Counted from the stretch's first letter, positions 35,364 through 47,450 are shown. The stretch: DNA of 64,000 nt from the human T2T-CHM13v2.0 reference genome, Homo sapiens (GCA_009914755.4 CP086569.2:31936001-32000000); one strand, 5' to 3'. The notes: generated by a model not told the origin, from the sequence alone. Made by a program: numbers and translations.

Positions 35364-35662
35364 TTTTTTTTTTAGACACAGTCTTGTCGTGTTGCACAGG
35401 GTGGAGTACAATGGCGCCACCTTTGCTCACTGCAACATCTGCCTCACGGGTCCAAGCGATGGTCCTCCCTCAGCCTCCCAGTTAGCTGGGACTACACCAC
35501 ACTGGGACTACACCAGCTGCCACCATGCCTAGCTAATTTTTTGGATTTTTAGTAGTGACAGCGTTTCACTGTATTGGCCAGGACGTTCTTGATCTCTTCA
35601 CCTTGTGATCCCCTTGCCTTGGCCTCCAAATTTGCTGGGATTACAGGCCTGAGCCAAGATCC
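35364..35662 (-). mobile_element. Alu (same ancestral copy, B-like diverged, 10-T tail), U15
   Basis: As above. Confidence 0.88.
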
Positions 35663-37784
35663 ATATTTTTTAAATGAAAAAAAATTTCAAAGGTACTCTG
35701 CTTGGTACAATAATCAAATGTATAAACTGAGGAATAAAACATAACCATGAAACCTACTTATAACTGCATATGGAAAATACAGAGGATAATTTTTTAAATA
35801 ACATATTTTGAAAGCCTTAACTAGTAATTTGAAGAGTTGGCATTTGAAAGGCCAGTATGAATATACCTTCAATGCAGCAACACAGGTTCCCCATGAGAAA
35901 CAGCAAACCCAGGGAAAATAAAACCAAAAAGGTTCAATCTCTTCTGACCTTTGAAAGACACAGCACAGACAGTGGTCCTTAGGACGAAGAGCAGGAGACC
36001 CCTAATTCCGTCACCATGGCGATAGGGCATAAACTTTGCTGGGTGAGGGCACAATCCACATTGTGAGGTCCAACTGCTGCCAGGAAGACAGGAGTGCTTT
36101 TACATAGACCGAAAGGTCATTGAAGGCTCAGAGTTTTGTTTCAAGAACTGAATCCCAAGCCCACACGTTATTAGGCTGCGCTTCTTAAAACAAGTTATGA
36201 GATGGGAAAAAGGGCACCCACAAACATACGTATACATTATGTATATAATAATATACAGTATCATATATATAATATATAAAACCTATGTATAATATTGTTT
36301 TACATCCTGCATCTTATATTATATATATTGTATAAAATATAATAATTGATAATATATAACGTTTACATTTATAAAATATGACATATAGTATATATTATAA
36401 TTTATGACATATATAATATATGTTATATATCATATATAGAATATATTATACAGTTAATATACGTATTAAATATAAATTATACATTATATATATTATATAT
36501 AATATATCTGTTATATATAATACCCATTATGCATAATATATATATTATGTCTATGTTATATATAGTATAAAACAACATATAATAATATATAATTGTATAT
36601 ATAAAATGCGACATATAATATATATTATATTTTATGACATATGTAATATATATTATATATTATATATAATACGTTGTATGTATAATACCTATGTTAAATA
36701 TATATTATATGACTATGTTATTAATTACATGTCACATATGTTATATATTATATATTTTACATAGAATATACCGGTTACATACAATATATACTATGTTACC
36801 TATAATGTATAATTTATTACATGTAAAATAAAGAATGCAATATATTATGTATAATTTATAATATACAATATGTGGAATGTGATATATATAACATATAATA
36901 TATGATATATGATATACAGTATATGATATATAACATACAATATATGATTCCTAATATATATGCTATACAATATATATTTTATGATATGTATTCTATATGT
37001 TTTATATTCTGTTATATATAACTATTTGAAATTATATATAACTGTATAATATTTTATGTAAATATGTAATATAATATATATAACTATATAATATATTATA
37101 TATAACTATATATTATGTTATATATACTTTTATAACATAATTTACATAAAATATCATAATATAATATATATTATATTATTTCATATTACATAATATATAT
37201 TACATATCACCCAATATAACTAACATACATAATATTATAATATAGATTATATTATGTTATATTAAATATCATATATATCATGTATCATATATTCTATAAT
37301 ATATATTATACATTATATAATATGTATGTTGTCTATTATGTGATATATATAACTCTATATATAATTATATTTTTATACATATAACTAGATAAACATGTAA
37401 TTCTACATATTTTCATTTATAATATGTAGAATTATATAATCATATATAATTATTTATATTCTATAAAAAATTTTATCATTTTATAAATTATAATATATAA
37501 AAATTATAATATGTACTACAAATATATATATTATATATCATATATGATATAGTACCTTTGTTAAATATCATAATACATATAAATGTGTATTATGTTATCT
37601 ATAATTATATAATTTCATATATAAGATGTATAATATGTATCATATATTATATATGTTATGTAATATATATAGTATATATAAGATGACACAGGATAAATAT
37701 TATATACTATGACATATAAAATATATGAGGTTATATGTTACATATAAGGCATAGCACATAACATGTAATATATATCATATATAA
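35364..37784. repeat. Unit U15 (2421 bp), first B-like, diverged unit (tagacacagtcttgtcgtg, aacatctg, 10-T tail, aaaccaaaaagg)
   Basis: Alu poly-T 35364 to next 37785. Confidence 0.9.
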
Positions 37785-38082
37785 TTTTTTTTTAGACAGA
37801 ATCTTGTCCTGTTGCACAGGGTGGGGTACAATGGCGCCATCTTTGCTCACTGCAACTTCTGCCTCACGGGTCCAAGCGATTGTCCTCCCTCAGCCTCCCA
37901 GGTAGCTGGGACTACACCACACTGGGACTACACCAGCTGCCACCATGCCTAGCTAATTTTTTGGATTTTTAGTAGTGACAGCCTTTCACTGCATTGGCCA
38001 GGATGATCTTGATCTCTTCACCTTGTGATCCCCTTGCCTTGGCCTCCAAATTTGCTGGGATTACAGGCCTGAGCCAAGATCC
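37785..38082 (-). mobile_element. Alu (same ancestral copy, A-type), U16
   Basis: As above. Confidence 0.9.
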
Positions 38083-45035: not shown

Positions 45036-45330
45036 TTTCTTTTTAGACAGAGTCTTGTGTTGCACAGGGTGGGGTACAATGGCGCCATCTAGGCTCACTG
45101 CAACATCTGCCTCACGGGTCCAAGCTATTGTACTCCCTCAGCCTCCCAGGTAGCTGGGACTGCACCACACTGGGACTACACCAGCTGCCACCATGCCTAG
45201 CTAATTTTTTGGATTTTTAGTAGTGACAGCGTTTCACTGTATTGGCCAGGATGGTCTTGATCTCTTCACCTTGTGATCCCCTTGCCTTGACCTCCAAATT
45301 TGCTGGGATTACAGGCCTGAGCCAAGATCC
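45036..45330 (-). mobile_element. Alu (same ancestral copy, B-type, 3-bp deletion), U19
   Basis: As above. Reads gagtcttgtgttgcacag instead of gagtcttgtcctgttgcacag. Confidence 0.88.
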
Positions 45331-47450
45331 ATATTTTTTAAATGAAAAAAAATTTCAAAGGTACTCTGCTTGGTAAAATAATCAAATGTATAAACTGAGG
45401 AATAAAACATAACCATGAAACCTACTTATAACTGCATATGGAAAATACAGAGGATAATTTTTTAAATAACATATTTTGAAAGCCTTAACTAGTAATTTGA
45501 AGAGTTGGCATTTGAAAGGCCAGTATGAATATACCTTCAAAGCAGCAACACAGGTTCCCCATGAGAAAAAGCAAACACAGGGAAAATAAAAACACAAAGG
45601 TTCAATCTCTTCTGACCTTTGAAAGACACAGCACAGACAGTGGTCCTTAGGACGAAGAGCAGGAGACCCCTAATTCCGTCACCATGGCGATAGGGCATAA
45701 ACATTGCTGGGTGAGGGCACAATCCACATTGTGAGGTCCAACTGCTGCCAGGAAGACAGGAGTGCTTTTACATAGACCGAAAGGTCATTGAAGGCTCAGA
45801 GTTTTGTTTCAAGAACTGAATCCCAAGCCCACACGTTATTAGGCTGCGCTTCCTAAATCAAGTTATGAGATGGGAAAAAGGGCACCCACAAACATACGTA
45901 TACATTATGTATATAATAATATACAGTATCATATTTATAATATATATAACCTATGTATAATATTGTTTTACATCCTGCATCTTATGTTATATATATTGTA
46001 TAAAATATAATAATTGATAATATATGTTTTATATTTATACAATATAACATATAGTATATATTATAATTTATGACATATATAATATATGTTATATATCATA
46101 TATAGAATATATTATACGGTTAATATACGTATTAAATATAAATTATACATTATATATATTATATATAATATATCTGTTATATATAATACCCATTATGCAT
46201 AATATATATATTATGTCTATGTTATATATAGTATAGAACAACACATAATAATGTATAATTGTATATATAAAATGCGACATATAATATATATTTTATTTTA
46301 TGACATATATAATATATATTATATATTATATATAATACGTTGTATGTATAATACCTATATTAAATATATATTATATGACTATGTTATTAATTACATGTCA
46401 CATGTGTTATATATTATATATTTTACATAGAATATTCCGGTTACATACAATATATACTATGTTACCTACAATATATAATTGATTACATGTAAAATAAAGA
46501 AAGCAATATATTATGTATAATTTATAATATACAATATGTGGAATGTGATATATATAACATATAATATATGATATATGATATACAGTATATGATATATAAC
46601 ATACAATATATGATACCTAATATATATGGTATACAATATATATTTTATGATATGTATTCTATATGTTTTATATTCTGTTATATATAACTATTTGAAATTA
46701 TATATAACTGTATAATATTTTATGGAAATATGTAATATAATATATATAACTATATAATATATTATATATAACTATATATTATGTTATATATACTTTTATA
46801 ACATAATTTACATAAAATATCATAATATAATATATATTATATTATTTCATATTACATAATATATATTACATATCACCCAATATAAGTAACATACATAATA
46901 TTATAATATAGATTATATTATGTTATATTAAATATCATATATATCATGTATCATATATTCTATAATATATATTATACATTATATAATATGTATGTTGTCT
47001 ATTATGTGATATATATAACTATATATATAATTATATTATTATACATATAACTAGATAAACATGTAATTCTACATATTTTCATTTATAATATATAGAATTA
47101 TATAATCATATATAATTATTTATATTCTATAAAAAATTATATCATTATATAAATTATAATATATAAAAATTATAATATGTACTACAAATATATATATTAT
47201 ATATCATATATGATATAGTACCTTTGTTATATATCATAATACATATAAATGTGTATTATGTTATCTATAATTATATAATTTCATATATAAGTTGTATAAT
47301 ATGTATTATATATTATATATGTTATGTAATATATATAGTATATATAAGACGACACAGGATAAATATTATATACTATGACATATAAAATATATGAAGTTAT
47401 ATGTTTCATATAAGGCATAGCACATAACATGTAATATATATCATATATAA
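45036..47450. repeat. Unit U19 (2415 bp), recombinant: B-type Alu (3-bp deletion, interrupted T-tail tttcttttt) + A-type unique segment + B-type AT segment
   Basis: Alu poly-T 45036 to next 47451. Unique segment carries intact A-type 71/61-aa frames and gcttcctaaatcaag, as in U16. Confidence 0.85.

What the first reader, a model, noticed from the sequence alone, without database searches (positions are those of the whole stretch)
35364..47450. Boundary between two array subfamilies (A: 1-35.3 kb; B: 35.3-64 kb) is a mosaic zone with recombinant units
A-type and B-type units differ consistently across all three unit parts. In the Alu, A has gaatcttg / aacttctg and B has gagtcttg / aacatctg. 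In the unique segment, A has gcaaacacaggg / aaaacacaaagg and B has gcaaactcaggg / aaaccacaaagg. In the translated frame A reads CVFIFPVFAF and B reads CGFIFPEFAF. In the AT segment, A has gattcctaat, tatatttttatacat, atatgtagaattatat, aaaattttatcattatat and B has gatacctaat, tatattattatacat, atatatagaattatat, aaaattatatcattatat. Units U15, U17 and U18 are the most diverged copies in the window. U16 joins an A-type Alu and unique segment to a B-type AT segment. U19 joins a B-type Alu to an A-type unique segment. The switch points fall at the Alu/unique and unique/AT junctions. This suggests recurrent breakpoints or conversion tract ends there, and the AT-rich segment is a plausible recombination hotspot.
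Basis: seen in the sequence. Interest (0 to 1): 0.55.

Follow-up and report, generated by a model that had tools for sequence, protein, structure and literature searches.

The report
Patchwork boundary inside human DYZ2 satellite
The window is an ordinary stretch of the human 2.4-kb DYZ2/HSat1B satellite, in which a recently homogenised block of repeats meets older repeats through a few copied patches, as already described for this satellite.

Summary
The whole 64 kb is one tandem array of 27 units of 2,411-2,422 bp. It matches human DYZ2/HSat1B on every published feature I could test. U16 and U19 are mosaics, as claimed.

Four parts of the description do not hold:
- **A and B are not sister subfamilies.** A is the genome-wide major DYZ2 type. 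B is a paraphyletic grade of older lineages that keep ancestral alleles.
- **U15 is a mosaic too.** It has an old B-like head and an A-like tail. U17 and U18 are no more diverged from the family consensus than U22, U24 and U26.
- **The zone is three patches.** An old segment runs from 35157 to 36738. An A-type island runs from 36949 to 38605. A 1,125-bp tract occurs twice, at 38129-39253 and 45377-46501, with one mismatch.
- **No switch interval contains a part junction.** A copying model over the whole array shows switches spread uniformly, so there is no AT-rich or junction hotspot. Mosaicism is array-wide.

Gene-conversion-like transfer or unequal sister-chromatid exchange explains the pattern best. 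Both are already documented for DYZ2, so the finding is real but ordinary.

The parts
1..35060 (.). A block (U0-U14): homogenised units of the genome-wide major DYZ2 type. U13 and U14 form a sub-type A' marked by columns 199, 208, 222, 821 and 1069.
   Evidence: These units differ from the outside major-type consensus by 0.5-1.5%. They paint as A at all 11 strict sites with 3 single exceptions. They group with the consensus-like contig L001 at 74% bootstrap.
35061..35157 (.). Switch interval 1, from A' to old sequence. It lies inside the AT-rich part of U14, 207-303 bp before the Alu of U15.
   Evidence: U14 carries 6 changes from the A consensus in columns 2216-2351, against 11 in the first 2,200 columns.
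35157..36738 (.). S2: an old, diverged segment with B alleles (end of U14 plus U15 columns 0-1374). It has no close relative in the window.
   Evidence: It carries B alleles at columns 17, 41, 73, 560, 954, 1004, 1272 and 1374. Sixteen of the 19 private changes of U15 lie here. The nearest unit differs at 31 of 1,375 columns, and A and B units are equally distant.
36739..36949 (.). Switch interval 2, from old sequence back to A type. It lies in the middle of the AT-rich part of U15.
   Evidence: The last B marker is column 1374 (36738) and the first A marker is column 1585 (36949).
36949..38605 (.). S3: an island of A/A' sequence that spans a unit boundary (tail of U15 plus U16 columns 0-821).
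   Evidence: It differs at 9-10 of 1,874 columns from the U12 tail + U13 head or the U13 tail + U14 head, against 36-49 from the units to its right. Window 37565-38371 is identical to 30304-31110 over 807 bp. The head of U16 differs from U13 at 1 of 821 bases.
38606..38610 (.). Switch interval 3, from A' to 'C-type' sequence in U16. It lies about 40 bp before the GC-richer part gives way to the AT-rich part at 38650.
   Evidence: Column 821 carries the A' marker shared with U13 and U14. Column 826 is the first of about 12 markers shared only with U19.
38129..39253 (.). Copy 1 (in U16) of the 1,125-bp shared tract. It consists of A' sequence (columns 345-821) joined to C-type sequence (columns 826-1471).
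   Evidence: It has 1 mismatch in 1,125 bp against 45377-46501, with permutation p <= 2e-4. U16 and U19 group at 97.5% bootstrap.
39254..40202 (.). S5: the tail of U16, with B alleles and 7 private changes.
   Evidence: All 7 private changes of U16 lie in columns 1475-2248. This tail differs from the tail of U19 at 15 of 949 bases.
40203..45035 (.). U17 and U18: orphan old units with B alleles and no sister copy in the window.
   Evidence: Each has 37 private changes spread evenly along the unit. Each differs from every other unit at 64-88 columns, A and B alike. Each is 2.2-2.3% from the outside consensus.
45036..45376 (-). Head of U19: a strongly diverged Alu part with B alleles at columns 17 and 73.
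   Evidence: Eleven of the 15 private changes of U19 lie in columns 4-344.
45377..46501 (.). Copy 2 (in U19) of the shared tract. It carries the same A'|C junction as U16 and is most simply read as copied from U16.
   Evidence: In U16 the A' part continues leftwards into S3. In U19 it abuts the diverged Alu. The direction of copying is inferred from this.
46502..47450 (.). Tail of U19, nearest to U20 and U21.
   Evidence: It differs at 13 columns from U20 or U21 and at 15 from U16. It shares columns 1472, 2264 and 2378 with U20 and U21.
47451..52284 (.). U20 and U21: a pair of similar older units.
   Evidence: They differ by 1.1% and group at 97.5% bootstrap.
52285..64000 (.). U22-U26: older units in a two-unit alternation (U22, U24, U26 against U23, U25).
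   Evidence: Mean divergence at offset 2 is 1.84%, against 2.54% at offset 1. U22+U24 group at 98.5% and U23+U25 at 100% bootstrap.
37785..38076 (-). Unit anatomy, shown on U16: a 5'-truncated antisense AluY fragment.
   Evidence: It is 77.8% identical to AluY positions 13-290. The AluY consensus was typed from my own memory. The weak hits to mir-1268 fit an Alu origin; that this microRNA is Alu-derived is my own knowledge.
38077..38649 (.).
   Evidence: The consensus is 39% GC. ACATACG lies at its 3' end.
38650..40202 (.). Unit anatomy, U16: the AT-rich part.
   Evidence: The consensus is 13.7% GC. It contains an internal direct repeat of about 230 bp.

Best explanation
The window is part of a human DYZ2/HSat1B satellite array, most likely in Yq12.

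Its left 35 kb is a block of units of the dominant DYZ2 type, homogenised recently. Its right 17-29 kb consists of several older, less homogenised lineages.

The interface at 35.1-47.5 kb is not one recombination boundary. It is a patchwork made by at least three non-reciprocal transfers of 1.1-1.9 kb between repeat units one to three units apart:
1. An old segment (35157-36738) is left inside, or was inserted into, A-type sequence.
2. An A-type island (36949-38605) ends sharply at 38606-38610.
3. A 1,125-bp tract that contains that junction was copied from U16 into U19.

The process is the usual concerted evolution of a satellite: gene conversion between sister chromatids or within one chromatid, together with unequal exchange of whole units. 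The same process is visible along the whole array. It is easier to see at the interface because the partners there differ more.

Shown here: the identity of the satellite, the patches and their statistical support, and the polarity of the alleles. Inferred: conversion rather than double unequal exchange, the direction U16 to U19, and the chromosome.
For: **Identity**
- Unit lengths are 2,411-2,422 bp, with 2,413 and 2,420 the most common.
- The antisense AluY fragment is 78% identical to AluY.
- The AT-rich part is 86% AT and the GC-richer part is 39% GC. The window is 24.3% GC overall, with one CpG per 148 bp.
- These values match the published descriptions.
- The window consensus is 100% identical to collapsed contaminant contigs of about 2.4 kb (L001, L039).

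**Polarity**
- Outside major-type contigs carry the A alleles.
- Outside copies of 88-93% identity carry the B alleles at nearly all A/B sites from column 545 onwards.
- The AluY consensus agrees with B at columns 17 and 41.
- In the rooted tree, A plus the consensus groups at 74% and B is monophyletic in 1% of bootstraps.

**Patches**.

**Array-wide exchange**
- A PHI-like test gives p = 0.0005 in the A block alone, in the B part alone, and after removing U15, U16 and U19.
- The copying model places 1-2 switches per unit everywhere.
- Divergence increases with distance between units (Mantel r = 0.50, p = 2e-4).

**Literature**
- Units in the middle of DYZ2 arrays are more alike than those towards the edges.
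- 29% of de novo Yq12 single-nucleotide changes look like interlocus gene conversion, and de novo gains or losses of one or two DYZ2 units occur about once per transmission.
- A later study attributes 17% of events to conversion.
Against: - Conversion cannot be told apart from two successive unequal exchanges using one haplotype.
- The donors of the old segment S2 and of the C-type tract are not in the window.
- U19 tested on A/B markers alone is not significant (p = 0.34). Its mosaic status rests on the tract shared with U16.
- The outgroup and major-type sequences are short-read contaminant contigs, which may be collapsed or chimeric.
- The chromosome (Y or an acrocentric short arm) was not determined.
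- Assembly quality could not be checked.
Confidence: 0.8

Rival explanations
1. Two co-equal subfamilies meet here and recombine repeatedly at fixed points: the Alu/unique junction, the unique/AT junction, or an AT-rich hotspot.
For: - Marker painting gives two classes with mosaic units between them.
- One switch (38606-38610) lies only about 40 bp from the GC-richer/AT-rich transition.
- With the strictest switch cost, 21 of 25 switches fall in the AT-rich part, against 16 expected.
Against: - B is not a clade (1% bootstrap) and its alleles are ancestral.
- None of the five switch intervals contains a junction.
- At the other two switch costs the distribution is uniform: 27 against 26.9 expected, and 36 against 35.2.
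- In outside DYZ2 copies all four combinations of Alu and unique-segment markers occur.
Confidence: 0.08
2. The offset-3 similarities are remnants of tandem duplications of three units (about 7.25 kb) made by unequal sister-chromatid exchange and later partly overwritten. They are not short conversion tracts.
For: - Three long near-identical tracts all lie at an offset of three units: 2079-4631 = 9327-11879, 30304-31110 = 37565-38371 and 38129-39253 = 45377-46501.
- In the copying model, offset 3 explains as many columns as offset 1 (3,423 against 3,616) and far more than offset 4 (475).
- De novo events of whole DYZ2 units are known.
Against: - Each tract is 0.8-2.6 kb long, not 7.25 kb.
- The units expected to be duplication partners are not similar: U14/U17, U17/U20, U15/U18 and U18/U21 differ by 2.8-2.9%.
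- Both flanks of the U16/U19 tract are diverged, so further overwriting events would be needed anyway.
Confidence: 0.2
3. There was no exchange. U15, U16 and U19 are evolutionary intermediates on a tree between B and A, and homoplasy accounts for the conflicts.
For: B is a grade leading to A in the rooted tree. U15 and the U16/U19 pair branch between the B lineages and A.
Against: - All four allele combinations occur at columns 17 and 1585: U1 has A with A, U17 has B with B, U15 has B with A, and U16 has A with B.
- Incompatible site pairs are half as frequent among neighbouring sites as overall, p = 0.0005.
- The U16/U19 tract has 1 difference in 1,125 bp, flanked by 16 in 344 columns and 15 in 949 bp.
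Confidence: 0.02
4. Assembly artefact. The mosaic units are chimeras made when reads from different parts of the satellite were joined or polished together.
For: Satellite arrays with more than 97% identity between units are hard to assemble. I could not inspect any reads.
Against: - The patches have sharp ends.
- Every unit carries its own private variants.
- The same kind of tract occurs inside the A block.
- The pattern agrees with what pedigree-validated assemblies report for DYZ2.
Confidence: 0.05

Closest known systems
DYZ2 / HSat1B satellite arrays of human Yq12, also present in smaller amounts on acrocentric short arms (Hallast et al. 2023, doi 10.1101/2022.12.01.518658; Rhie et al. 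2023, doi 10.1101/2022.12.01.518724)
   Same: The unit length, the three-part unit (truncated AluY fragment, GC-richer part, part with more than 85% AT), the GC and CpG content, identity to consensus of 97.6-99.5%, and local homogenisation with more diverged units to one side.
   Different: Nothing essential differs. Here the 2,413 versus 2,420 bp length difference is a 7-bp TATATAT indel in the AT-rich part, not the ACATACG segment that Hallast et al. mention. Neither an array edge nor DYZ1 is in the window.
Interlocus (intra-array) gene conversion and whole-unit gains or losses in DYZ1/DYZ2 seen in pedigrees (Porubsky et al. 2025, PMC12240836; PMC13252187)
   Same: Sequence is copied between non-orthologous units of the same array. 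Events involve one to a few units.
   Different: Those studies saw single changes or short clusters arise in one generation. Here the events are old and fixed, the tracts are 1.1-1.9 kb, and the events are inferred from one haplotype only.
Layered centromeric alpha-satellite arrays, with a young homogenised core flanked by older diverged layers, and the unequal-crossover model of concerted evolution (my own knowledge, not looked up here; Hallast et al. draw the same parallel)
   Same: A homogeneous young block lies next to older, more diverged units, and divergence increases with distance along the array.
   Different: This is a different satellite family, with a 2.4-kb composite unit rather than 171-bp monomers organised in higher-order repeats.

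Membership tests
DYZ2 / HSat1B | Tandem unit of about 2.4 kb, with 2,413 bp the most common length and a 2,420-bp consensus | tested here: met
   The 25 complete units are 2,411-2,422 bp long. Six are 2,413 bp and five are 2,420 bp. The window consensus is 2,420 bp.
DYZ2 / HSat1B | [quoted passage not shown] | tested here: met
The AT-rich part is 13.7% GC and the GC-richer part is 39.1% GC.
DYZ2 / HSat1B | Overall 24% GC and about one CpG per 150 bp | tested here: met
   The window has 24.3% GC and one CpG per 148 bp, against the values.
DYZ2 / HSat1B | Sequence identity to the published DYZ2 consensus | not testable with these tools
As a proxy, the window consensus is 100% identical to contigs of about 2.4 kb found as contaminants in bacterial assemblies (L001, L039). 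Rhie et al. report that such contamination comes from HSat1B.
DYZ2 / HSat1B | Location in Yq12, alternating with DYZ1 arrays (or in an acrocentric short-arm HSat1B block) | not testable with these tools
   The window is array from end to end, so no flank is available.
Gene-conversion tract | A patch of near identity between two non-allelic copies, bounded on both sides by clearly more diverged sequence | tested here: met
   The U16/U19 tract has 1 difference in 1,125 bp, with 16 differences in 344 columns to the left and 15 in 949 bp to the right, p <= 2e-4. The S3 island differs at 9-10 of 1,874 columns from A' units and at 36-49 from its right-hand neighbours.
Gene-conversion tract | Non-reciprocal transfer: the donor is unchanged and the unit number is unchanged | not testable with these tools
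   This needs the ancestral or a related haplotype.
Recombination hotspot at a fixed position in the unit | Breakpoints cluster at one unit position more than a uniform spread would give | tested here: not met
   The five interface intervals fall at five different unit positions. Array-wide, 42 switches split 27 / 8 / 7 between the AT-rich part, the Alu and the GC-richer part, against 26.9 / 5.0 / 9.9 expected.
Two monophyletic subfamilies | Each class is a clade supported by shared derived changes | tested here: not met
   A plus the outside consensus groups at 74% bootstrap and B at 1%. The B alleles are shared with outgroup copies of 88-93% identity and with AluY.

The most novel reading that the evidence does not exclude
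DYZ2 arrays may have a preferred exchange register of three units (about 7.25 kb). All three of the longest near-identical tracts in the window lie at an offset of exactly three units. In the copying model, offset 3 explains as much sequence as offset 1 and about seven times as much as offset 4. If this holds over whole arrays, it would point to a physical constraint on how sister chromatids mis-pair in Yq12 heterochromatin, such as loop size or chromatin periodicity.
Probability: 0.08. Interest if true: 0.4.

Novelty: already known. Interest (0 to 1): 0.15.

Why it matters
The finding matters little beyond this locus. It gives a worked, base-level example of how a homogenised block of the largest human heterochromatic satellite meets older units. 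It shows conversion-like patches of 1-2 kb, sharp ends and copying between units up to 7 kb apart. This adds tract-length detail to a process so far documented mainly as single de novo changes in pedigrees. That distinction matters for anyone using such markers to define DYZ2 subfamilies.

Tried and rejected
- **Rfam scan of 35000-40300.** It gave only weak hits to mir-1268 below the gathering score, which fits an Alu origin (that this microRNA is Alu-derived is my own knowledge). No RNA family matched.
- **Coding reading of the 'translated frame'.** The frame is a 61-codon minus-strand ORF with a TTG start. It has no Pfam match and an in-frame stop in U11-U13. Rejected as a gene.
- **A three-unit higher-order repeat.** Mean divergence by offset shows no general minimum at offset 3. 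The expected duplication partners are not similar. Rejected as a general structure and kept only as a note.
- **First search for long exact diagonal runs.** A threshold of 1,500 columns found nothing. I repeated it at 700.
- **U19 as a recombinant of the A and B consensus.** Tested on A/B markers alone, this is not significant (p = 0.34). Two-breakpoint models for U15 and U16 are not significant either.
- **Private changes of U17 and U18 as retained ancestral states.** Only 2 of 74 match the outgroup, so they are ordinary private mutations.
- **Searches left unused.** The phage, plasmid and E. coli collections, the protein homology searches and structure prediction have no bearing on a human satellite.
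Full report
**What the window is.** Tandem Repeats Finder and a base-composition profile show a regular alternation of AT-rich and GC-richer sequence along all 64 kb. 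A conserved 16-mer recurs 26 times at spacings of 2,411-2,422 bp. This gives 25 complete units (U1-U25) and two partial ones (U0, U26).

Each unit has three parts:
- a GC-richer part (columns 293-865, 39% GC);
- an AT-rich part (columns 866-2422, 13.7% GC).

The window as a whole has 24.3% GC and one CpG per 148 bp.

These features match the published description of human DYZ2/HSat1B. That description gives a unit of about 2.4 kb, 2,413 bp as the most common length, a 2,420-bp consensus, 24% GC and one CpG per 150 bp. [quoted passage not shown]

Rhie et al. noted that HSat1B is a frequent human contaminant of bacterial assemblies. Two exact-pattern scans bore this out. They found the repeat in 20 bacterial genome records and 19 metagenome contigs. 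Two collapsed contigs of about 2.4 kb (L001, L039) are 100% identical to the window consensus. I therefore take the identity as settled. The chromosome is not settled, although the match to the dominant copy type makes Yq12 the likely place.

**Checking the observation.** All 16 marker strings occur at the expected unit positions with the stated distribution, apart from a few single exceptions. In a MAFFT alignment of all units, 24 columns have different majority bases in U0-U14 and U20-U26. Eleven of them are near-perfect. Painting with these 11 gives:
- pure A for U0-U14, with three single exceptions;
- pure B for U17, U18 and U20-U26;

The peptides CVFIFPVFAF and CGFIFPEFAF are literal minus-strand translations across columns 545 and 560. 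The frame is a 61-codon ORF with a TTG start, an in-frame stop in U11-U13 and no Pfam match, so it has no coding meaning.

**A and B are not two sister subfamilies.** Distances within B (1.1-3.1%) are about as large as distances between A and B (2.0-3.4%). A is tight, at 0.3-2.8%.

I used the outside copies as reference. The near-consensus contigs carry the A alleles. The six or so outside copies of 88-93% identity carry the B allele at almost every A/B site from column 545 onwards. AluY agrees with B at columns 17 and 41. The B alleles are therefore ancestral and the A alleles derived.

A neighbour-joining tree rooted on the diverged copies puts A together with the outside consensus at 74% bootstrap. 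B is monophyletic in only 1% of replicates. It resolves into separate lineages: U23+U25 (100%), U22+U24 (98.5%), U20+U21 (97.5%), U17, U18, and U16+U19 (97.5%).

A units differ from the outside consensus by 0.5-1.5% and B units by 1.4-2.4%. U17 and U18 (2.2-2.3%) are no more diverged than U22, U24 and U26 (2.3-2.4%). Their 37 private changes each reflect only the lack of a sister copy in the window.

In outside copies the Alu markers and the unique-segment markers occur in all four combinations. Short-read contigs of a repeat can be chimeric, so this last point is weaker.

**Anatomy of the interface.** Reading the array as continuous sequence gives the following segments.
- **Start of the old segment.** The last 200 columns of U14 already carry six changes, so diverged sequence starts between 35061 and 35157.
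- **S2, 35157-36738.** It has B alleles and 16 private changes. Its nearest relative in the window differs at 31 of 1,375 columns, and A and B units are equally distant.
- **Switch back to A type**, between 36739 and 36949.
- **S3, 36949-38605.** This island spans the U15/U16 boundary. It differs at only 9-10 of 1,874 columns from the U12 tail + U13 head or the U13 tail + U14 head, against 36-49 from the units on its right. It includes 807 bp identical to 30304-31110. The head of U16 differs from U13 at one base in 821.
- **End of the A' haplotype**, between columns 821 and 826 of U16 (38606-38610). About 12 markers shared only with U19 begin there.
- **The U16/U19 shared tract.** U16 and U19 differ at 16 positions in columns 4-344, at one position in columns 345-1471, and at 15 positions in columns 1472-2378. 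At the raw-sequence level, 38129-39253 and 45377-46501 differ at one base in 1,125.
- **Direction of copying.** The shared tract contains the A'|C junction. In U16 the A' part continues leftwards into S3. In U19 it abuts a strongly diverged Alu that holds 11 of the 15 private changes of U19. The simplest history is that the junction formed in U16 and the tract was then copied to U19. This direction is inferred, not shown.

**Statistics.**
- Permuting marker order gives p = 0.008 for a single switch in U15 and p = 0.005 in U16. U19 on A/B markers alone is not significant (p = 0.34).
- A scan statistic on the variable columns gives p <= 2e-4 for the U16/U19 tract. It gives p = 0.0016 for U16 against U13 and for U15 against U14.
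- Columns 17 and 1585 show all four allele combinations.

**The mosaic zone is not special.**
- A PHI-like test asks whether incompatible site pairs are rarer among neighbouring sites than overall. It gives p = 0.0005 for the whole array, for the A block alone, for U17-U25, for U20-U25, and after removing U15, U16 and U19.
- The A block contains its own tract, 2079-4631 = 9327-11879, with one mismatch in 2,553 bp.
- A copying model (Viterbi, donor defined by unit offset) places 42 switches along the array at 1-2 per unit. U15 to U18 have 3, 2, 4 and 2.
- Divergence rises with distance along the array (Mantel r = 0.50, p = 2e-4). U22-U26 alternate in a two-unit pattern.

**The breakpoint claim.** The five interface intervals lie at five different unit positions: columns 2117-2216, 1374-1585, 821-826, 1451-1472 and 344-545. 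None contains the Alu end (about column 292), the GC-richer/AT-rich transition (about column 866) or the AT/Alu junction (column 0). One lies about 40 bp from the transition. Array-wide, the switches split 27 / 8 / 7 between the AT-rich part, the Alu and the GC-richer part, against 26.9 / 5.0 / 9.9 expected from length. The split is 36 against 35.2 at a lower switch cost and 21 against 16 at the highest. I see no robust hotspot.

**Mechanism.** Two-ended patches of 1.1-1.9 kb, bounded by diverged sequence on both sides, are the signature of gene conversion or of two unequal exchanges. On a Y-linked satellite the partners would be sister chromatids or the same chromatid.

Both processes are documented for this satellite:
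- 29% of de novo Yq12 single-nucleotide changes have an identical non-orthologous match, which was attributed to interlocus gene conversion in DYZ1/DYZ2.
- De novo structural events of 2,416-4,839 bp remove or add whole DYZ2 units about once per transmission.
- A later study classed 17% of events as conversion.
- Units in the middle of arrays are more alike than those towards the edges.

The window therefore shows the expected picture: a recently homogenised block of the dominant type, older units on one side, and exchange patches at and beyond the interface.

As a rough guide only, I applied the published Yq12 rate of 3.86e-7 per bp per generation. One difference in 1,125 bp then corresponds to about a thousand generations, and 2.5% divergence to a few tens of thousands. 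This is my inference, it depends on a Y location, and the uncertainty is very wide.

**Verdict.** It is not supported on fixed switch points or an AT-rich hotspot, and it over-simplifies in treating A and B as two subfamilies. The thing itself is a known satellite behaving as described in the recent literature. Novelty: already known. Interest: low.

The only unusual point is the prominence of the three-unit (7.25 kb) offset among the longest shared tracts. It rests on about four independent events, so I record it as a lead and not as a finding.

Noticed in passing
window 2079-4631 / 9327-11879; 30304-31110 / 37565-38371; 38129-39253 / 45377-46501: The three longest near-identical tracts all lie at an offset of exactly three units (7,248-7,261 bp). 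In the copying model, offset 3 explains 3,423 variable-column positions, against 3,616 for offset 1, 1,958 for offset 2 and 475 for offset 4. There are too few independent events to test this.
   Followed up: partly
window 52285-64000 (U22-U26): These units alternate in a two-unit pattern: U22, U24 and U26 against U23 and U25. Mean divergence among U20-U26 is 1.84% at offset 2 and 2.54% at offset 1. U22+U24 group at 98.5% and U23+U25 at 100% bootstrap. This is a local dimeric higher-order repeat of about 4.83 kb.
   Followed up: partly
L006 5897-6920 (NZ_HF570958.1, Nostocoides japonicum T1-X7, 5.16-Mb scaffold): About 1 kb of human DYZ2 (97.8-100% identical to the window consensus) sits as an island of 35-38% GC within sequence of about 70% GC. 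A human satellite fragment has been scaffolded into a chromosome-scale bacterial record. Nineteen further bacterial assemblies and 19 metagenome contigs carry DYZ2.
   Followed up: partly
alignment columns 1283-1289, e.g. after window 29392 in U12; ACATACG at 38644 in U16: The 2,413 versus 2,420 bp length classes differ here by a 7-bp TATATAT indel inside the AT-rich part (absent in U0, U1, U2, U4, U5 and U12). They do not differ by the ACATACG segment that Hallast et al. describe at the HSATI/AT junction. ACATACG is present in 24 of 26 units; U11 and U12 have a C>G change in it.
   Followed up: partly
L027 1-4122, L032 216-5693, L035 1-3443: These metagenome contigs join a unit of 99.5-99.9% identity directly to a unit of only 91-93% identity, which carries B alleles. 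They may be other boundaries between major-type and old units, or assembly chimeras.
   Followed up: no
window 14556-14993 and the same position in other units (alignment columns about 950-1390); columns 1512-1950: The AT-rich part has internal structure. There is a direct repeat of about 230 bp (1.9 copies, 75-77% matches). There is also an inverted self-match of about 440 bp at 74% identity (secondary BLAST hits). This agrees with the reported enrichment of inverted and mirror repeats in HSat1B.
   Followed up: no
window 35469-35535 and 37889-37955, minus strand: There are weak Rfam hits to mir-1268 (26-34 bits, gathering score 83) inside the Alu part. This fits an Alu origin (that mir-1268 is Alu-derived is my own knowledge), and the hits are not evidence of a microRNA gene.
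   Followed up: yes
the 17 A/B sites whose ancestral allele could be inferred (columns 17 to 2279): Taking B as ancestral, the changes leading to A are 8 from A/T to G/C, 3 from G/C to A/T and 6 neutral (my count). In a 76% AT sequence this is not clearly different from what base composition predicts. A GC bias of conversion can be neither claimed nor excluded.
   Followed up: no
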